DNA of 64,000 bases from a virus (lineage: Duplodnaviria; Heunggongvirae; Uroviricota; Caudoviricetes), in the IMG/VR virus record IMGVR_UViG_3300006204_000001; one strand, written 5' to 3'. The translations under genes and the position numbers were made by a program. This document shows, one piece after another, positions 36,562 to 60,703 of the stretch; position 1 is the stretch's first letter; every line of letters starts with the position of its first letter. The notes beneath the pieces were generated by a model, which saw only the letters and a list, made by a program, of their open reading frames with translations, was not told the origin of the DNA and made no database searches.

Positions 36562-37872
36562 ATGAAAATATTTAATAATAATGGAATTAATCAATTGATA
36601 AAATTAGTAAAAAGTAATGATAAAGAATTACGAACATTGATAAATAATAAAGCTAATAGTAATCATACACACAATGAGATGTTTAAAAGTCGAGTTTTGA
36701 ATACAGTTAATATAGATACTGAATATGAATCTAATTATGTCGTTGGAATTTCAGGTGAAGGTCATGGCACTTGTCCTACAACTGGTGCTTGGTATAATGT
36801 AATAAATTTTGTATGTAATCATTATTTTGCTACTCAGATAGCTTGGTCAATTACACAAAGTACAAATGTTAATAGATATGCAAATTTATTCTTTAGAGAA
36901 AGATATTGTAGTGATGCATCAAAATGGACAACATGGAGGGAATTGAGTGTTACTGGACATAATCATGATGCATCATACATTAAAAAATCTGGTGATACTA
37001 TGTCAGGTGCATTAAATTTTGCAAATAATACATGGAATAATGTAGGTGACGATGTTGCTATAGGTGATTCTAATGTAGCTGGTACATTATGTGTTAAAGG
37101 TTTAAATGCAGATGGTAATATTAGATTATATAGACAAGATGGTATTAAAATAGGAGATGTTGTTGTATCAGAAGATATTGGTAATTTTGGTTGTAGAATT
37201 CAAGTAGGAGAAACTGAATCTACGGTATCAAAGATGCCTTCCTTTGGTTTTAGAAGATTATCAGATAATAATTCAATTAATTTTTTTGCAATTTATCCTA
37301 AAAGTATGGCATATGGATTTACTGACATAACATTTGGTTCATATATGGATTCATCAGATATTAGAAGAATCGATATACCATTTTCATTTGGTATAGATAG
37401 TAATGGTAATTATGGTTATAAGAAAATAGGTGCTGATACAGTAATCCCTTTTAGTAATAGTAAACTTTTAATGGATGAAACTGGGGGATATACTTGGGAA
37501 AAAACTTTTGGACGTTGTGATAGAAATGATATTCTTTATTTTCTTCCAGATAAAAATTATGCTAGTGTGTATCTAGGTGGGTTTTATGGTGGAGCAACTT
37601 TATCTGCATCAACAAACTTTAGAAATTTAGCAAACATTAATTACGGTGGTGGCAGTAATACTGAAATAGATCATTTGTTTAATATATTAACTAAACATGG
37701 AATATTTAAAGATGTAGCATTATTAGTGATGAAATATAAAATTATAGATGATATTTTTTTTCCAGCTTTGATAAATACTGGATACATGTCAGAAACTACA
37801 TATGAATTAAGTAAAAACATATTACATGGAATATTAATAAATGTAACTAAAAAGACTATTAGTTTTATATAA
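36562..37872 (+). CDS. short tail-fibre/receptor-binding paralog 2
   Basis: N-terminus MKIFNNNGINQLIKLVK; HTH/HNH motifs; knob-like segment; KSGDTMSG; GNYGYKKIGADTVIPF. Confidence 0.65.
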   Translation: MKIFNNNGINQLIKLVKSNDKELRTLINNKANSNHTHNEMFKSRVLNTVNIDTEYESNYVVGISGEGHGTCPTTGAWYNVINFVCNHYFATQIAWSITQSTNVNRYANLFFRERYCSDASKWTTWRELSVTGHNHDASYIKKSGDTMSGALNFANNTWNNVGDDVAIGDSNVAGTLCVKGLNADGNIRLYRQDGIKIGDVVVSEDIGNFGCRIQVGETESTVSKMPSFGFRRLSDNNSINFFAIYPKSMAYGFTDITFGSYMDSSDIRRIDIPFSFGIDSNGNYGYKKIGADTVIPFSNSKLLMDETGGYTWEKTFGRCDRNDILYFLPDKNYASVYLGGFYGGATLSASTNFRNLANINYGGGSNTEIDHLFNILTKHGIFKDVALLVMKYKIIDDIFFPALINTGYMSETTYELSKNILHGILINVTKKTISFI

Positions 37873-37874
37873 TA

Positions 37875-37905
37875 AATAGAGTTCCCATATATGGGAACTC
37901 TATTT
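37875..37905. terminator. bidirectional terminator
   Basis: AATAGAGTTCCCATATATGGGAACTCTATT. Confidence 0.85.
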
Positions 37906-37928
37906 ATTATTATTTTATTCTATAATAC

Positions 37929-38204
37929 TTATAATTCTACTATAAGTATTACTTTTGATTTTAATGATGATATATCAAATATTACATTTGATAATTGTGT
38001 TACTGATATATCACCATCTGACCTTGCTTTTTGTAATTGCTTACTTCTTTCTTTTCTGTTATTATGTTCATACTCTTCATATTGTCTATCGATTTTATCA
38101 TTAATACCAATCATATTATGATAAAAATAATATTGTCCCATATCCATTACATTATATTCTTCTGATGGAACTTCCTTATAGTATACCTGACTTATCTTTC
38201 CCAT
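37929..38204 (-). CDS. hypothetical protein
   Basis: 91-aa ORF with AAGGAGG RBS, coupled to the Cys-rich gene. Confidence 0.65.
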   Translation of the reverse strand: MGKISQVYYKEVPSEEYNVMDMGQYYFYHNMIGINDKIDRQYEEYEHNNRKERSKQLQKARSDGDISVTQLSNVIFDISSLKSKVILIVEL

Positions 38205-41130
38205 CTAATTCCTCCTTCTCTTCTGGGAATAAAAATTTATTACGTTGAATAATATAAATTAATTTATCTTCTTTTCTAATAGGATCTAATACTTCAAATT
38301 CCCATGGTAATATACTATTAATATCATTTTCAGTAAATCTGTGTTCCTTATCATAAAAGAATTCAATAATAAATATTTCTCCACCATCATCTATATTAGG
38401 CATAACATCTGCAGGTGGAATTCTATTTACCATATCTTCATTAATTATTATATTACCTTCTTTATCAAATGTATATACTCCTCCATGAATTGTAGACTGT
38501 TTTACATTATACTTTAACCAATCAGGTGCTACTATTAACATATTATGATGCTTATCTTTATATCCAGGAATAGTAGATGGATCAAATTCATTAAAATATT
38601 TTCTACTCCATATATAGACAAAATCATTGATAATTAATTTTTGTAAATTAATTTCATGATATTTACCATATTTAAATTTCCATATCTTTATAATATCATT
38701 TACAGAGATATTCGTATTATTAGTAACTATATCAGTATCGGTAATGTCTAATACTTGTTGTATATGTTCTGTTACACTAATATCATCTATTTCTATTACT
38801 AAGAATTTATTATTTCCTGTATATGTAATATTAATCATCTTAGGATTAGGAATTACAGCTGGCATCTTATATGGTGGAATATCATGCACTAATCTAAATG
38901 ATTCTCTTTCTTCCCATCTATTTTTCGGATGGGGATATAAATAATTCCATGCTATAGGATCACGTTCTGGTCCAGTAGTAAATGTAGTATCAGATTTTAA
39001 AAATGTAGCACATGTTCCTGTACATGTTGTCAAACAATAACTATTACAATCAGAAAAACATGTTCGATTACATGAACTATCACACCACCAACTGCACATG
39101 TTACTACAAGATGAACATCCATTTGTACATTTCACACTACAAATTCCGATACATCTGCCTACGCATGAATAACATAAATTACTACAACCAGAACAATTTT
39201 CTTTACATGAATTTATACAATTAAATTTACATGATTGAGTACATTGTTCAGAACATGATACTTCGCAACCTGCACTGCATCCAGCACTACATGAAGCAGT
39301 ACATGCTCCACAATTAAAACCACATGTATTTACGCATGATGTACATCTAAAAGAACATGCATCTGAACACTTTGATGTACATGAAGTAGCGGTACAATTA
39401 ATACGACAATTATTCTCACACGCTCCCTGTTTATCTGTACCACATATATTCCTACAACCTATTCCTATACAATTACCATCACATGAAGATTGACATTGTG
39501 AATAACATCCATTAGCAAATGAACATCCTACACAATTTTTATGTTCTGCTCTATTCTTAGCTCCATTTACACATGTATATTGACAACCTGTACAACCTAA
39601 TTTACATGATAATGCACAACCTGATCCACAATTAGTAGAACAATCATAACTACAATTATCTGAGCATGTAGCCATGCACTCATAATAACATGTATGTACA
39701 CAATATCCTTCACATACACCTGTACATGTTCCAATACAATTCATAGTACAATTTGCTCTACATCCTTGTCCTTTTCCTTTTTTGTAACCATCATTCTCAC
39801 TATATGATTTTTCATTATTAGTACATCCACCATAACAACTTTCTGAACATGCATTTTGACATGATGCAAAACATCTTCCCATGCATCCTGTATCCCAACA
39901 TTCTGTTTTCTTATTAGGATAAAATTGACATGAGTATGAACATCCATCACATGTATGATATGTTGTTTCAACATGATTTAATGCAGGTTCTCCATCTGTA
40001 CCACCTGTAGTAGTAACTTTTACTGTTTTAACTCCTGCTTTTAAACATGAATAACCTTCATTACTTTCACATTTAGTTTTACATGTCTGATAACATTGAG
40101 TACTACATCCAGTACATTGATTTCCGCATGTTGCTGTACATGCATTACCACATCTAGAATGACATGTAGATGAACAAGATTCCGAACACTCATTATCACA
40201 TGTAACGTGACATAACCCTGTACAAAGATTATTACACGCACCTTCCTTTCCACCATATACTGGTCTACTTGGATATGGATCCCCTTCTTGTGGATTACGT
40301 GGATTCTTTCCAAATCTAATAGAATCTAATCCTCCTGGTCTAATTCTTGTGACTTTTGTCTTTCTATCATTATTTTGATCATGCCAATCTCTATTGACTA
40401 ATTCTGATTTAAATCTATTATATGGGTGAAAATTATCATCACCTGGTTTAGCACCATAATCATCATAAAAATTAGCTGGACCTAATCCTGTACCAGTTAT
40501 TTCTTCTCCATCTGATTCACCTGATAACATTACATATTTTCCATTTTCCATAGGATATGTAAATGTTGAATTTTTTACAGGATAATTTTCATTAATTTGA
40601 TCTTTGACTCTACCATTAGGATCTTCTTTAGTAGATAAAATATCTGATTCATGTAATGGAGTATTTAATTCACTATTTTCAGCTGCTTCTAATACATCTA
40701 TTATACCTTGTGGATCTCTAAATGCAGTTAATGGTAATTCATCTCTTCCATAAAATAAATTTATATCTGTTATCTTTGATAATCCTACTAACAAATTTTT
40801 TATTTCATCAACATTAAATTGTGATGCTGATGAATCAGGATCTTTTATTTCTGGTAATGGTCCTGCAGGATTATTTCCTTGAGCAGGATAATGAATATTT
40901 CTTGTAGGTTCTATACTCCCTTCTGATGTATTATTAACAGAATAAGTTTTTTCATCTACAAATACTCTATCTCCTATATTTGGTAATGATAAAGGAGATT
41001 GTTTATCAATTCCTACTGATGGTAATGTCAATGGATCAAACCATTTGTATGTTCCACGACGTTGTATTTCATGATTTAATCTATCTATTACATCAGTAAA
41101 TTCTTTATTTGAATATACTTGCTTATTCAA
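38176..41130 (-). CDS. giant Cys-rich CXXX-repeat protein
   Basis: About 87 Cys by manual count in CxxxC/CxxC register over ~410 aa; TTG start with GGAGGTG RBS. Confidence 0.8.
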   Translation of the reverse strand: MNKQVYSNKEFTDVIDRLNHEIQRRGTYKWFDPLTLPSVGIDKQSPLSLPNIGDRVFVDEKTYSVNNTSEGSIEPTRNIHYPAQGNNPAGPLPEIKDPDSSASQFNVDEIKNLLVGLSKITDINLFYGRDELPLTAFRDPQGIIDVLEAAENSELNTPLHESDILSTKEDPNGRVKDQINENYPVKNSTFTYPMENGKYVMLSGESDGEEITGTGLGPANFYDDYGAKPGDDNFHPYNRFKSELVNRDWHDQNNDRKTKVTRIRPGGLDSIRFGKNPRNPQEGDPYPSRPVYGGKEGACNNLCTGLCHVTCDNECSESCSSTCHSRCGNACTATCGNQCTGCSTQCYQTCKTKCESNEGYSCLKAGVKTVKVTTTGGTDGEPALNHVETTYHTCDGCSYSCQFYPNKKTECWDTGCMGRCFASCQNACSESCYGGCTNNEKSYSENDGYKKGKGQGCRANCTMNCIGTCTGVCEGYCVHTCYYECMATCSDNCSYDCSTNCGSGCALSCKLGCTGCQYTCVNGAKNRAEHKNCVGCSFANGCYSQCQSSCDGNCIGIGCRNICGTDKQGACENNCRINCTATSCTSKCSDACSFRCTSCVNTCGFNCGACTASCSAGCSAGCEVSCSEQCTQSCKFNCINSCKENCSGCSNLCYSCVGRCIGICSVKCTNGCSSCSNMCSWWCDSSCNRTCFSDCNSYCLTTCTGTCATFLKSDTTFTTGPERDPIAWNYLYPHPKNRWEERESFRLVHDIPPYKMPAVIPNPKMINITYTGNNKFLVIEIDDISVTEHIQQVLDITDTDIVTNNTNISVNDIIKIWKFKYGKYHEINLQKLIINDFVYIWSRKYFNEFDPSTIPGYKDKHHNMLIVAPDWLKYNVKQSTIHGGVYTFDKEGNIIINEDMVNRIPPADVMPNIDDGGEIFIIEFFYDKEHRFTENDINSILPWEFEVLDPIRKEDKLIYIIQRNKFLFPEEKEELDGKDKSGIL

Positions 41131-41163
41131 AATACTTTCACCTCCATAAATAATCTAATCTTT

Positions 41164-41175
41164 TAATATCTCGTT
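41164..41175 (-). promoter_or_regulatory. putative late-type promoter AAC-N7-TA
   Basis: AACGAGATATTA upstream of the Cys-rich gene. Confidence 0.4.
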
Positions 41176-49869: not shown

Positions 49870-51219
49870 ATGTCAAGAAGAATATTTTCACCAAGCTGCA
49901 TTTTTAATAATGCATTCGTATCATTTATAAATAAGGATTTTAAAATTATTGATTACGAAAAAGACATGATTGCGCATGTTCCAGATGGTGAAGTAAAACC
50001 AGAATTTATTATTAACACAAGATTTGGATATCGGATTAAGTCTGTTTCAATTGTTGATAATAATACAGAAGAAGTCATTCAATATCTTATACCTCAGGAT
50101 AAAAATGGTATACCTATATTTTCATTTGATATGCCAGATAAAGATATAAAAATTAATATTGATATAAGAGAGATGGAACAAAATAAATTCTGTATTAATT
50201 ATCTGGAAAAAAATCATATTACTGAACTTTATAATGATTATAAAAAATATGTATATATATCATTAGAAAAAATAAATGAATTATCAATTACAAATAGAAG
50301 CCCATTGTTGAGTAATAGATGTGAAACGTTTGCATCTCCTGGAGAAAGAGTTTGTATCAATATTGATATAACTAAAGGATATGCGTTAAGATCATTATCT
50401 GTCATTAATGATAGAACTATGTTACCTATTGAAACATTGGAACCTACAGCCAATAATAATTTTATATTCACAATGCCAAATGATAATGTAACTATTATTT
50501 GTCAAACATTCAGAATTGATGATTATAAAAATCCAGAAATTGGCAAAGATATAACAATAAGATCATCTTTTATAGAATGCAAACATGATAAGCCTATAAT
50601 ATTAAAATCATTATATGGAATTTATAAGTATAGTGGATATTCTAGTAATTGTCTGAATCAATCACCAATATTGAGAATAGGAGAAAAAAGAGTTCTTGAA
50701 TTAGATATAAAAGAAGGGTATAAATTAAAATACTTTAAGATTTTTACATGTTGTAATAATCATAAGGGTCAAATAAATTATAATGTGACTTATTTAGATG
50801 GTAATGAGATAAAGTTAGAAATTATTGTCCCCGATTGTAATATTCTATTTGATGTAGAAGTTGAAGAAAAGGAGAAAGACGAAATGGAAAACAAAGTTAT
50901 TGAAACAGAGAATGAATCTATTAAAACAGATGGAGCAATTGCAACATTTAAAATTCCTGAAGAATTGGCTAAAGAATTGTCAGAACTTTTAACGAAACAG
51001 AGTATCAGACAAAATATGTTAAAAGAAATTCTTATCTCTAATCCTTCTAAATATGAAGAAGTTGAAAAGTTGCTTATTCCGATTACCACAAGAATTGAAA
51101 CTATTAAAACAAAGATCACTACAGAATATGTTCCTGATTATTATCGTGATGATAAATATATGTGGAACTATGATGGATATGATATCTCTGGTACTACTGT
51201 ATCAGTATTTGAAAATTAA
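49870..51219 (+). CDS. protein with three divergent InlB-B-repeat-like domains fused to a C-terminal helical domain that has its own internal start
   Basis: GYRIKSVSI...FSFDMPDKDI; GYALRSLSV...FTMPNDNVTI; GYKLKYFKI...IVPDCNI; AAGGAG plus in-frame ATG at 50884. Confidence 0.6.
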   Translation: MSRRIFSPSCIFNNAFVSFINKDFKIIDYEKDMIAHVPDGEVKPEFIINTRFGYRIKSVSIVDNNTEEVIQYLIPQDKNGIPIFSFDMPDKDIKINIDIREMEQNKFCINYLEKNHITELYNDYKKYVYISLEKINELSITNRSPLLSNRCETFASPGERVCINIDITKGYALRSLSVINDRTMLPIETLEPTANNNFIFTMPNDNVTIICQTFRIDDYKNPEIGKDITIRSSFIECKHDKPIILKSLYGIYKYSGYSSNCLNQSPILRIGEKRVLELDIKEGYKLKYFKIFTCCNNHKGQINYNVTYLDGNEIKLEIIVPDCNILFDVEVEEKEKDEMENKVIETENESIKTDGAIATFKIPEELAKELSELLTKQSIRQNMLKEILISNPSKYEEVEKLLIPITTRIETIKTKITTEYVPDYYRDDKYMWNYDGYDISGTTVSVFEN

Positions 51220-57760: not shown

Positions 57761-58714
57761 ATGAAACAATTAAAAGATAATGGTATTAAAGAAGTAATAA
57801 GATTAGTAAAAAATGAATTAAAGAATAAAGCTAATATTAATCATAATCATGATAGTGTATATAGTAAATTAAATCATACTCATAGTTATGCAGCATCATC
57901 TCATAATCATGATGATAGATATTTAAAATTGGATGGGTCTAATAAAATGACAGGTCCAATTTGGTATAGAAATACTAATAACAATCATTCATCACCAATG
58001 ATAGAATTTGTTCCAGGGGATGATACGGGAGATGGAATGATAATAGGTAATGGCGGTTTATTAGCATTAAATGGTGGAGAAGCTTATAGAAATATAAATG
58101 GAGTTTTAAACAATTATAAAGGCGAAGATGAACATATAGTATTAGCTACAGACGAAACAATAGATATTTATACAGGCGTACAACAAGGAACAAATAAAGC
58201 TGCGTTTACTCAAATATTAAAGGACGGAACATTTACTGGAAAAGTCAAATATGATGAAAAAGGAAATAATATTTATAATTATTACGTTAGAAAATTAACT
58301 GGTCCTGGTGAATCATATGCAAAATATAGACATTATATGGATCTTACAAAGATGGAATTTATAAATATATATACTCTGGCATATGATGGAATTTTACATA
58401 AAATATCACTAGAGAGTAATTTTACTGGTTTAGCATTCTTATGTTTAATAAGAGACTCATCTACGCAAGATTATTACTTATTAAATTTATATTTTCTTTC
58501 AAATGTTAGTGACTACACGCCGAAAATTGTCAAGTTAGAATTGATTAATAGTGGAGGAGCAGTTGAAAATGTTCTTAAAGATCCAAATGGTTCATTTAGT
58601 ATGTCTAAATTGAATGATGATTCTCATCATAATATTTATTATTCATTACCTAAATATGTATCAGGATCTAGAACTAATATAAAATTTGCTAAATTACTAT
58701 TAATAGGACTATAA
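57761..58714 (+). CDS. short tail-fibre/receptor-binding paralog 3
   Basis: MKQLKDNGIKEVIRLVK; HNHD/HTH repeats; YLKLDG..MTG. Confidence 0.65.
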   Translation: MKQLKDNGIKEVIRLVKNELKNKANINHNHDSVYSKLNHTHSYAASSHNHDDRYLKLDGSNKMTGPIWYRNTNNNHSSPMIEFVPGDDTGDGMIIGNGGLLALNGGEAYRNINGVLNNYKGEDEHIVLATDETIDIYTGVQQGTNKAAFTQILKDGTFTGKVKYDEKGNNIYNYYVRKLTGPGESYAKYRHYMDLTKMEFINIYTLAYDGILHKISLESNFTGLAFLCLIRDSSTQDYYLLNLYFLSNVSDYTPKIVKLELINSGGAVENVLKDPNGSFSMSKLNDDSHHNIYYSLPKYVSGSRTNIKFAKLLLIGL

Positions 58715-58735: not shown

Positions 58736-58770
58736 AAATAATAGAGGGATTTTTAATCCCTCTATTATTT
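58736..58770. terminator. bidirectional terminator
   Basis: AATAATAGAGGGAT-loop-ATCCCTCTATTATT. Confidence 0.85.
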
Positions 58771-60703
58771 ATTTCATATATTCGTATTCACCATTCTCTG
58801 TCAAATCTATATATTTAATCCAAAAATCATATGGTGCTTCCATTCTATCTCCTATAGATATAGTTTCTAGATTTAATGATTCTTCTGTCAACGTAATAGC
58901 AGCAAATGTATGACCAGTAATATTTGATCCACCTAATGTAGTCCATTCTTCAGGTGTTGTTTGATATTGCCATGAACCCCCTGCTTCTATAATCCTATAT
59001 CGTTTACAGTTATAAGCTTTAGATAATACCCTACTAGATCTCATGTTCCTATCAATACTAATTGTACCTGTAAATCTAATACAATATGAATAATCACCCA
59101 TCTCATATACTTTTCCTGGTTTATATTTTTGAGGGTGCATAGTTATTTTATTCATATAAATAGTATATGGATTAGTAGGTGATGATGGATCAGGTAATCC
59201 AGCTATCATTGGAACCATCATCTCAGCAAGATCAGTAATCTTTATCTCATGTGCATATGCATCATTTGGATATCTAGTATTACCAATTAATGATCCATTT
59301 GAACATTGTATCTTTCTCGGTAATACTGCCATATCTCTGATATGTCTTGTTTCAATAGCATTACTTACAATATGACGATTATATACAGCATTCTCATATA
59401 ATTCATTTTCTGTAATCCAATCTAAGTAAGCTATTCTTCTTAATCCTGCAACTTGAACATCATCAGACATTGTATCCATATCATTATTAATAAAATATCT
59501 TATAGTACCATTCATAGTACCTTTAATTATACTTATATCTGTAATATAATGTCTTTTATCAATATCATCTTTTTTATAATAATCTTGTAATACATCTGAT
59601 AATGTACTATCTAATAGACCATTAGAATCAAGAATATAATCTACAATAGCTCCCATGTTTAATGTTATACCATCTATAGAATCATGGAATTGATTTTCAT
59701 TAAATTTCCAATATGTTCCAAGATGTGAATAATCCCAATAATATCTTCCATCTGTATCTATTCTACATACTGCAATTTCATTATGTGAATCAATACCATA
59801 TCGTACAAAATATATTTGTCTATAATATTTTTTAGTTGCTCTAGGTACATCATCTCTATGATCTACTATATGTACATTTGCTATCCAATCTTCCAGTTCT
59901 GGTAGTGTCCCATTAAATTCTTCTATGGATTCTCTTACATACTCAACAATAGATCTTGTAGTAGGATATTGCTTATTATTTGCAGTAATATTATTGAATA
60001 TATCTACTTTGTTAATTTTATCTTCTTTAGTATCAAATACTTCACAATGAGCATTCTCATCAACATAATGTCCATCCATTGTATCTACTACACGATTTAT
60101 TCTATCATCTATACCTTGATCTAATTCATCTACTCTGGTCCATAGTTTCATTAAATTACGTCTAATATCAATATGAGTAAGGTAATTAGTAGAAATATTG
60201 TGTTTATTGATTTGCTCATTAACATATTCTGTCAGCACATTATCTGTGTTAAGTTGTTCAAATGTCACTCTATGTGGATTGCTAGAAGTATCCATTACAT
60301 GATCATACAAATCTTGAATATTCATATGAAAATTATAATTATCTAACATAGATAATACTGCTTCTCTTTGAGGTCCAGATAGTGGTTTATCTGCATCTGA
60401 TGTATTATCCACTCTTCCAAGTTTTACATCTGCTTTCGTAATTATGACATCATCTGTTTTTCCATTTACAGATGTAACTGGAAATATTACTTTACCTTTA
60501 CCACCTGTAATTATTTCAAACTCTAATTCTTCTAATATAGTGCGTAAAGATTTTAAGTCAGGAGTTTTATCATCAAATACTTGATCTATAGTAGTAGAAG
60601 GAGCTATCTGATCAATTTTTGTTGTAGCAGGATTATTTTCATCTTCTAATACAAATAAATCACGTGGTAATAATCCATTTAATCTTTTTATATTTTCATT
60701 CAT
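58769..60703 (-). CDS. tail-fibre-like virion protein
   Basis: VTSVNGKT, LGRVDNTSDADKPLS, NPHRVT; paralog of 26009 and 53485. Confidence 0.65.
   Translation of the reverse strand: MNENIKRLNGLLPRDLFVLEDENNPATTKIDQIAPSTTIDQVFDDKTPDLKSLRTILEELEFEIITGGKGKVIFPVTSVNGKTDDVIITKADVKLGRVDNTSDADKPLSGPQREAVLSMLDNYNFHMNIQDLYDHVMDTSSNPHRVTFEQLNTDNVLTEYVNEQINKHNISTNYLTHIDIRRNLMKLWTRVDELDQGIDDRINRVVDTMDGHYVDENAHCEVFDTKEDKINKVDIFNNITANNKQYPTTRSIVEYVRESIEEFNGTLPELEDWIANVHIVDHRDDVPRATKKYYRQIYFVRYGIDSHNEIAVCRIDTDGRYYWDYSHLGTYWKFNENQFHDSIDGITLNMGAIVDYILDSNGLLDSTLSDVLQDYYKKDDIDKRHYITDISIIKGTMNGTIRYFINNDMDTMSDDVQVAGLRRIAYLDWITENELYENAVYNRHIVSNAIETRHIRDMAVLPRKIQCSNGSLIGNTRYPNDAYAHEIKITDLAEMMVPMIAGLPDPSSPTNPYTIYMNKITMHPQKYKPGKVYEMGDYSYCIRFTGTISIDRNMRSSRVLSKAYNCKRYRIIEAGGSWQYQTTPEEWTTLGGSNITGHTFAAITLTEESLNLETISIGDRMEAPYDFWIKYIDLTENGEYEYMK

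What the first reader, a model, noticed from the sequence alone, without database searches (positions are those of the whole stretch)
38176..41130. Giant CXXX-repeat protein (~87 Cys): candidate radical-SAM-modified virion protein
Seen: roughly 39000-40240 encodes about 87 Cys in CxxxC (some CxxC) register with small residues (S/T/G/N) between, in four blocks, flanked by Cys-free N- and C-terminal regions. The gene has a late-type promoter motif and lies among tail genes. Established: CXXX-repeat proteins are the proposed targets of a radical SAM/SPASM maturase system (TIGR04114-TIGR04119 families) and are usually described as short peptides. Inference: this phage may apply RiPP-like thioether cross-linking, or extensive metal/disulfide binding, to a ~1000-aa structural protein. 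No maturase is encoded in this window.
Basis: partly seen in the sequence, partly recalled or inferred. Interest (0 to 1): 0.8.

Follow-up and report, generated by a model that had tools for sequence, protein, structure and literature searches.

The report
Phage cysteine-ladder protein with radical-SAM maturase
A mouse-gut jumbo phage encodes a 984-residue late protein with 87 conserved cysteines, mostly four residues apart, plus a matching radical-SAM enzyme elsewhere in its genome, so it probably modifies this likely tail-associated protein enzymatically; neither the chemistry nor a place in the virus particle has been shown.

Summary
Confirmed. ORF 38176-41130(-) is 984 aa with 87 Cys, all in residues 299-707; 67 of 86 spacings equal 4 (shuffle mean 18). 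Every Cys is at least 95% conserved across 108 homologs.

The source is a complete 289-kb AR9/PBS1-related phage from mouse gut. It encodes a TIGR04115-type rSAM/SPASM enzyme 62 kb away (315 bits, intein-split; an intein-free ortholog passes the cutoff). All 14 viral records tested carry both genes. In 18 of 20 lineages the enzyme lies just upstream of the giant, usually behind a gene with a tail-fibre-type segment.

A conserved AR9-like late promoter precedes the gene. The window also holds a homolog of the small accessory protein of prophage CXXX cassettes.

The enzyme-target pairing is well supported (~0.9). Virion location (~0.65) and thioether chemistry (~0.55) are inferences. The PapB-type CxxxD acceptor is absent; fold searches were uninformative.

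This scan found the same family before on other genomes. No paper describing it turned up in the library searched. Verdict: new variant of the known, experimentally uncharacterised CXXX-repeat rSAM system.

The parts
38176..41130 (-). Giant CXXX-ladder protein, 984 aa: conserved Cys-free N region (1-298), 87-Cys ladder (299-707), conserved post-ladder motif (about 710-750), variable beta-rich C domain (about 760-984) that some homologs lack. Its cognate rSAM/SPASM maturase (773 aa with a 167-aa mini-intein) lies OUTSIDE the window, at G000:C1:158524-160845(-) = L001:8525-10846(-)
   Evidence: PF27846 precomputed on the 99% identical P0001; maturase:
39012..40236 (-). Cys ladder, 87 Cys in four blocks (16/10/17/44)
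   Evidence: all 87 Cys at least 95% conserved in 108 homologs
41047..41124 (-). N-terminal helix (aa 3-28, ending E-I-x-R-R) shared with the ~105-aa N domain of phage/prophage CXXX proteins; candidate recognition or attachment element
   Evidence: hhalign probability 80-85, E about 1e-5; R24 and R25 invariant
41163..41175 (-). Putative late promoter AACG-N6-TAA
   Evidence: footprint in 14 of 15 homolog loci; AR9 late consensus
41139..41145 (-). Ribosome-binding site
   Evidence: conserved in homologs
37929..38204 (-). 91-aa gene overlapping the giant's 3' end; follows the giant in most relatives; no family assigned
37871..37908 (.). Palindromic hairpin between convergent genes, likely terminator closing the giant/91-aa unit
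   Evidence: sequence; function inferred
50884..51219 (+). Homolog of the small accessory protein of prophage CXXX cassettes. Here it is the last 111 codons of ORF 49870-51219 with its own RBS-like site; a stand-alone ~100-aa gene just past the giant in relatives
   Evidence: hhalign 95.8, E 6.6e-9; best hit in the genome for the accessory HMM
58769..60703 (-). 644-aa protein with a short tail-fibre-type segment; first gene of the fibre-like/rSAM/giant/91-aa cassette in relatives; carries the same late motif (60752-60739)
   Evidence: PHROG tail hits on a ~40-50-aa stretch, best E 1e-9

Best explanation
The protein is the dedicated substrate of the phage's own TIGR04115-type radical SAM/SPASM enzyme and is a late, probably tail- or fibre-associated structural protein. 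SHOWN: the ladder, its conservation, the enzyme in the same genome, the conserved enzyme-target adjacency, and an accessory homolog. INFERRED from a conserved motif: late transcription by the phage's own non-virion RNA polymerase. INFERRED by analogy with CteB/PapB: after intein splicing the enzyme forms a 5'-deoxyadenosyl radical, abstracts an H from a residue near each Cys, and joins the Cys sulfur to that carbon. This would repeat along the ladder and give many small thioether rings that stiffen a 400-residue segment without needing an oxidant in an anaerobic host. The acceptor cannot be the Asp/Glu at +4 used by PapB; a small residue (Ser/Thr/Gly/Asn) between cysteines is the likeliest. 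INFERRED from gene context: the product joins the tail-fibre apparatus, possibly through its N-terminal region. Odds: cognate substrate ~0.9; virion or tail part ~0.65; thioether as the chemistry ~0.55. The confidence given covers 'rSAM-modified, tail-associated late protein', not the exact bond.
For: Enzyme: best family TIGR04115 at 315 bits, next family 143; an intein-free ortholog passes the cutoff, 363 against 350; closest solved fold of the ortholog's model is the thioether maturase CteB (5WGG, Z 23.9, rmsd 4.3 A, 330 aligned). The giant is the only CXXX protein in the genome. Co-occurrence in 14 of 14 viral records. The enzyme is within about 1.4 kb upstream on the same strand in 31 of 34 loci, or 18 of 20 after merging near-identical ones, often with overlapping stop and start. 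76 of 80 bacterial-genome loci of the enzyme's homologs have a CXXX gene, and the commonest PHROG families among their upstream genes are tail fibre, collar, baseplate or unannotated. The cassette's first gene carries a fibre-type segment and the same late motif. Conservation: 87 of 87 Cys kept; a variant strain seen in four other studies keeps the frame and all Cys; inteins sit at six different ladder Cys in homologs, which by general knowledge points to an important gene.
Against: No experiment on any TIGR04115 enzyme was found in the papers searched. The protein has no significant hit to any virion family. Only 2 Cx3D/E sites exist. The fold match to CteB is close to ChlB (Z 22.3) and anSME (Z 21.7), which do other chemistry. 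Enzyme, giant, accessory and fibre-like gene are dispersed in this genome, and the enzyme lacks the late motif. Giant-enzyme distance correlation (0.73) is no higher than giant-control gene (0.81). Some homologs split the ladder into a second gene without the N-terminal helix, so that helix is not a simple in-cis leader.
Confidence: 0.6

Rival explanations
1. The enzyme does act on the ladder, but the chemistry is not S-C cross-linking. Options are Cys oxidation of the anSME type, desulfurisation or epimerisation, or installing metal-sulfur centres.
For: anSME and ChlB score within about 2 Z units of CteB. The PapB acceptor motif is absent. No non-Cys position in the repeat is fixed. Eighty-seven turnovers on one chain would be extreme.
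Against: The next-best HMMs are mostly Cys-thioether maturases (PapB, SCIFF, QhpD-type). Seven SPASM-region Cys fit an open auxiliary-cluster site, and PapB binds the substrate Cys at such a cluster (PMC12373016).
Confidence: 0.25
2. The protein is a non-virion precursor: the modified ladder blocks act inside the infected cell or are cut out as RiPP-like products (toxin, anti-defence or metal buffer), and tail adjacency only reflects late co-expression.
For: No structural family was detected. The ladder comes in blocks with linkers, and homologs split it into separate genes. The NCBIfam family is described as a peptide maturase system.
Against: Recurring placement behind fibre genes in unrelated phages and prophages. 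The N region (about 50-70% identity) and the total Cys count (83-89) are conserved. No transporter or peptidase gene was recognised in the cassettes (not searched systematically).
Confidence: 0.25
3. The cysteines are not enzyme-modified. They bind Zn or Fe-S in bulk, or pair as disulfides after lysis (twin-CX3C style), and the rSAM has another job.
For: CxxC and CxxxC are common metal and disulfide motifs (general knowledge). The enzyme is 62 kb away in this genome. No coevolution signal beyond descent.
Against: The specific TIGR04115 family, not just any rSAM, accompanies the ladder in 14 of 14 viruses and 76 of 80 bacterial loci, mostly as a neighbouring gene. No other candidate substrate exists in the genome. 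A gut habitat and an NrdG-like gene suggest an anaerobic host, which disfavours disulfides. Metal binding by unmodified Cys could still coexist with modification.
Confidence: 0.1

Closest known systems
NCBIfam/TIGRFAMs CXXX-repeat radical SAM system (TIGR04115 maturase; TIGR04114/PF27846 target repeat; TIGR04116 associated protein; TIGR04119)
   Same: Same maturase family (315 bits; ortholog 363 over cutoff 350), (CXXX)n target carrying PF27846, enzyme-target adjacency, small helical accessory gene
   Different: Target is a 984-aa multi-domain late phage protein with 87 Cys; enzyme has a ~150-aa N-terminal extension and an intein; TIGR04116 and TIGR04119 are not met over cutoff; parts are dispersed in this genome; no chemistry was found described for the family
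Ranthipeptide/sactipeptide maturases PapB (NF047865) and CteB/SCIFF (TIGR03974, PDB 5WGG)
   Same: rSAM/SPASM fold, next-best HMMs, repeated Cys-containing motifs as substrate
   Different: PapB links CXXXD (six rings; PMC12373016); here +4 is Cys and only 2 Cx3D/E occur; no RRE-type domain recognised in the model; substrate is far larger
QhpD (TIGR03906), thioether cross-linking of the quinohemoprotein amine dehydrogenase gamma subunit
   Same: Precedent, from my own knowledge, for an rSAM/SPASM stapling a protein subunit rather than a released peptide; HMM hit at 74 bits
   Different: A few Cys-Asp/Glu links in a small bacterial enzyme subunit; far below cutoff; no phage context
CXXX/rSAM cassettes of SPN3US/phiEaH2-type jumbo phages and of Clostridia prophages
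   Same: CXXX genes plus rSAM/SPASM directly after virion or fibre genes; the prophage type shares the N-terminal helix and the accessory gene
   Different: SPN3US type: three 68-134-aa ORFs and two distant rSAMs (about 24% identity). Prophage type: median 237 aa and 36 Cys with a 105-aa N domain, of which only the first helix aligns to the giant

Membership tests
CXXX-repeat rSAM system (TIGR04114-04119) | Target with tandem CXXX repeats | tested here: met
   67 CxxxC spacings; PF27846 = tSAM_targ_Cxxx_rpt precomputed on P0001 and all 120 listed homologs
CXXX-repeat rSAM system (TIGR04114-04119) | NCBIfam TIGR04114 score over cutoff 20 | tested here: inconclusive
   No hit on the giant or two homologs, but the model also misses five prophage CXXX proteins and barely passes on one (21.3)
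CXXX-repeat rSAM system (TIGR04114-04119) | TIGR04115 maturase in the same genome | tested here: met
   Full-length match, 315 bits with the intein in place (cutoff 350), best family by 170 bits; ortholog L008 scores 363. Most orthologs score 294-347, just under cutoff
CXXX-repeat rSAM system (TIGR04114-04119) | Maturase gene adjacent to the target | tested here: met
   Not in this genome (62 kb apart), but in 31 of 34 homolog loci
CXXX-repeat rSAM system (TIGR04114-04119) | TIGR04116 associated protein | tested here: inconclusive
   No HMM hit. A positional and sequence homolog of the prophage accessory gene is present, but that prophage class itself matches TIGR04116 weakly at most
CXXX-repeat rSAM system (TIGR04114-04119) | TIGR04119 second maturase | tested here: not met
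   Only a 32-bit cross-hit on the TIGR04115-type gene itself
CXXX-repeat rSAM system (TIGR04114-04119) | Short peptide target | tested here: not met
   984 aa; the 120 listed homologs are 749-1564 aa, within the searched range of 541-1722
Ranthipeptide (PapB-type) | Cx3D/E donor-acceptor motif | tested here: not met
   2 sites among 87 Cys; PapB HMM 143 against cutoff 340
Ranthipeptide/sactipeptide | Cys S-C thioether bonds formed by the rSAM | not testable with these tools
   Needs mass spectrometry or in vitro assay
rSAM/SPASM enzyme | CxxxCxxC and SPASM cysteines intact | tested here: met
   Motif contiguous once the intein is removed in silico; seven SPASM-region Cys; TIGR04085 29.8 over cutoff 27
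Phage tail fibre / virion protein | Sequence or fold match to a fibre family | tested here: inconclusive
   No family hit; model pLDDT 51; fold searches gave nothing significant
Phage tail fibre / virion protein | Late promoter and tail-gene context | tested here: met
   sequence evidence only
Phage tail fibre / virion protein | Presence in purified particles | not testable with these tools
   No cultured member; SPN3US proteomics could not see its CXXX ORFs because the GenBank record does not annotate them

The most novel reading that the evidence does not exclude
Phages use RiPP-type radical SAM chemistry in particle assembly: a roughly 1000-residue tail or fibre protein is stapled by dozens of enzyme-made thioether rings into an oxidant-independent rigid filament, and this is the real role of much of the orphan TIGR04115 family.
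Probability: 0.33. Interest if true: 0.85.

Novelty: new variant of a known kind. Interest (0 to 1): 0.6.

Why it matters
The TIGR04115 family has a name, but I found no described reaction or biological role for it. If it cross-links a phage tail protein at up to 87 sites, that would be an unusually heavily radical-SAM-modified protein and a new kind of virion post-translational modification. It would also offer an enzyme that staples long polypeptides. The wide occurrence in gut phages, and the related cassette in the cultured phage SPN3US, make the question directly testable.

Tried and rejected
1. Pfam, NCBIfam and PHROG on the giant: only a weak compositional hit to phrog_6085.
2. AlphaFold2 of the giant: mean pLDDT 51, ladder under 50. 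Foldseek (PDB, viral), VIA and Atlas searches gave nothing significant; this does not show a new fold.
3. Homotrimer job on residues 1-296: no answer, score 0.00; not evidence either way.
4. Mirror-tree test: no enzyme-target signal beyond shared descent.
5. Negative control through a core marker: it returned mostly the same contigs, and the four others are 2-62% complete fragments, so there is no complete genome lacking the giant to compare.
6. Whole N-domain homology to short CXXX proteins: only the first helix aligns, and the prophage N-domain HMM does not rank the giant in its own genome.
7. rSAM N-extension as the 202-aa partner of small phages: rejected. As a fused accessory domain: weak only (probability 39).
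8. Genome-wide late-motif discovery without comparative data was marginal.
9. No RNA holder listed.
10. No cultured phage encodes the giant.
11. The family's defining paper (Haft and Basu 2011, recalled from memory) is not held, so family definitions rest on HMM names and descriptions.
12. The second rSAM in the genome (C1:265774-266283, 169 aa, NrdG-like) was rejected as the maturase: too short for a SPASM domain and no TIGR04115 match.
13. Assembly or frameshift artefact rejected: the whole gene lies in one contig in three other runs, with no indels in any of four.

Full report
OBSERVATION. The ORF at 38176-41130(-) encodes 984 aa. All 87 Cys lie in residues 299-707; 67 of 86 spacings are 4 and 9 are 3, in blocks of 16, 10, 17 and 44. 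Shuffles of the ladder give 18 CxxxC on average and at most 33. The gene is real: 172 homologs were found. In 108 aligned sequences all 87 Cys columns are at least 95% conserved and the ladder holds 83-89 Cys. Four other studies hold a variant with 16 substitutions in the region, no indels and no Cys lost. The N region and ladder are conserved; the C-terminal 220 aa vary and some homologs lack them.

SOURCE. The window lies in a complete 289,059-bp virus record with 26.9% GC. One conserved window gene has its best cultured matches in Bacillus phages AR9/PBS1 and Staphylococcus jumbo phages at about 24% identity. The sequence is held by 20 runs from 11 studies; those with a stated habitat are mouse, gut or faeces metagenomes. 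The host is unknown. The enzyme's closest bacterial-genome homologs are almost all in Bacillota, and an NrdG-like gene suggests an anaerobe (inference).

THE ENZYME. At C1:158524-160845(-), 62 kb from the giant and outside the window, is a 773-aa rSAM/SPASM. Its best family is TIGR04115 at 315 bits, next PapB at 143. A 167-aa mini-intein with canonical ends sits inside the SAM-cluster CxxxCxxC motif, which is contiguous once the intein is removed in silico. Seven SPASM-region Cys are present. An intein-free ortholog passes the cutoff (363). Its model is closest to CteB (Z 23.9), with ChlB (22.3) and anSME (21.7) close behind, so the fold does not fix the chemistry.

LINKAGE. All 14 viral records with the giant carry this enzyme. 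In 31 of 34 loci with enough upstream DNA, or 18 of 20 after merging near-identical ones, the enzyme lies within about 1.4 kb upstream on the same strand, often translationally coupled. The usual order is fibre-like gene, rSAM, giant, 91-aa gene, followed on the other strand by a ~100-aa gene. In this genome the cassette is dispersed, but the fibre-like gene (58769-60703), the 91-aa gene (37929-38204) and the ~100-aa frame (50884-51219) are all inside the window. The last is homologous to the small gene found in 52 of 80 bacterial-genome cassettes (hhalign 95.8), though it does not score with TIGR04116. Of those 80 loci, 76 have a CXXX gene (median 237 aa, up to 650 aa and 145 Cys). Most of these share the giant's first helix but not the rest of its N region. 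Distance correlations show nothing beyond vertical descent, and no complete genome lacking the pair was available as a control.

TIMING AND LOCATION. AACG-N6-TAA lies 45 nt upstream of the start, and the relaxed form of the motif is present in 14 of 15 homolog loci that have their own intergenic region (the pattern was derived from these regions). It also precedes the fibre-like partner. AR9 late promoters are AACA-6N-TA/G and early ones are AT-rich (PMC5312081). This genome has a matching early motif at 39 genes, not including the giant. Tail association rests on context only. Fibre and Ig genes lie on one flank here; the cassette's first gene has a fibre-type segment; fibre, collar and baseplate families lead the annotated hits upstream of prophage cassettes; and the SPN3US cassette follows virion gene 167 and the baseplate/fibre candidate 168. 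The giant itself matches no virion family, and its poor model made fold searches uninformative. SPN3US virion proteomics (PMC5694885) does not list gp166 or gp163, but the annotated gp166 is in the wrong frame and the three CXXX ORFs are unannotated in that record, so that negative is uninformative.

MECHANISM. Best reading: a late protein modified along its ladder by the phage's own rSAM and then used in the tail-fibre apparatus (0.6). Thioether formation is the likeliest chemistry by analogy with PapB, which binds the substrate Cys at an auxiliary cluster and links CXXXD motifs (PMC12373016). Here the +4 residue is Cys, only two Cx3D/E sites exist, and the three in-between positions are mixed S/T/G/N, so the acceptor must differ from PapB's. 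Split ladders whose second gene lacks the N-terminal helix (L023, L025 and several prophages) show that the helix is not an obligatory in-cis leader. The rivals overlap in part: other rSAM chemistry (0.25), a non-virion product (0.25), and unmodified metal or disulfide use (0.1).

COMPARISON AND NOVELTY. It works like, and by maturase and repeat belongs to, the CXXX-repeat rSAM system. It departs from it in target size, phage late context and the missing TIGR04116/04119 scores. It is not a PapB-type ranthipeptide. Nine literature searches found no paper on rSAM modification of phage CXXX proteins; the library lacks most subscription journals. The scan's index lists 145 notes in at least 44 genomes for these words, including this same protein family. 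Those are unchecked AI notes; they agree with this reading but were not counted as evidence.

VERDICT. A real feature with a well-supported enzyme-target pair; virion location and chemistry are unproven. New variant of a known kind; interest 0.6.

Noticed in passing
L202:2597-3626 (SPN3US, JN641803.1): Annotated gp166 is in the wrong frame; three real CXXX ORFs (130, 134 and 68 aa) upstream of the two rSAM genes are unannotated. Similar ORFs occur in phiEaH2 (L006:6084-7128).
   Followed up: partly
P0009, P0011, P0022, P0026, P0052, P0060, P0070, P0075, P0091, P0101, P0120: Inteins are inserted directly before ladder cysteines at six different positions; many orthologous rSAMs are also lengthened, probably by one or more inteins.
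   Followed up: partly
L023:1629-10937: A complete 246-kb relative has four rSAM genes in a row and the ladder split into two ORFs with 52 and 78 Cys; L025 is split similarly.
   Followed up: partly
L001:11115-11933 (G000 C1:161114-161932): QueC-like gene just upstream of the rSAM, and upstream of the cassette in L016, L032 and L046; role unknown.
   Followed up: no
L001:6497-6976: A further paralog of the fibre-type N-terminus seen at window 57761-58714, with short His-rich tandem repeats, 1.5 kb from the rSAM gene.
   Followed up: no
window 49870-51219: The 449-aa ORF looks like an unrelated 5' part fused in frame to the 111-aa accessory homolog, which stands alone in relatives.
   Followed up: partly
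G000 genome-wide: Strong early-type motif AATTATATATTCTAA upstream of 39 genes, close to the AR9 early promoter.
   Followed up: partly
L008:818-1270 (rSAM N-terminal extension): Confidently modelled ~135-aa strand-helix-hairpin-strand domain with no clear solved match and weak likeness to the accessory protein; possibly a fused accessory.
   Followed up: partly
G000 C1:265774-266283: 169-aa NrdG-like rSAM activase, suggesting an anaerobic ribonucleotide reductase.
   Followed up: no
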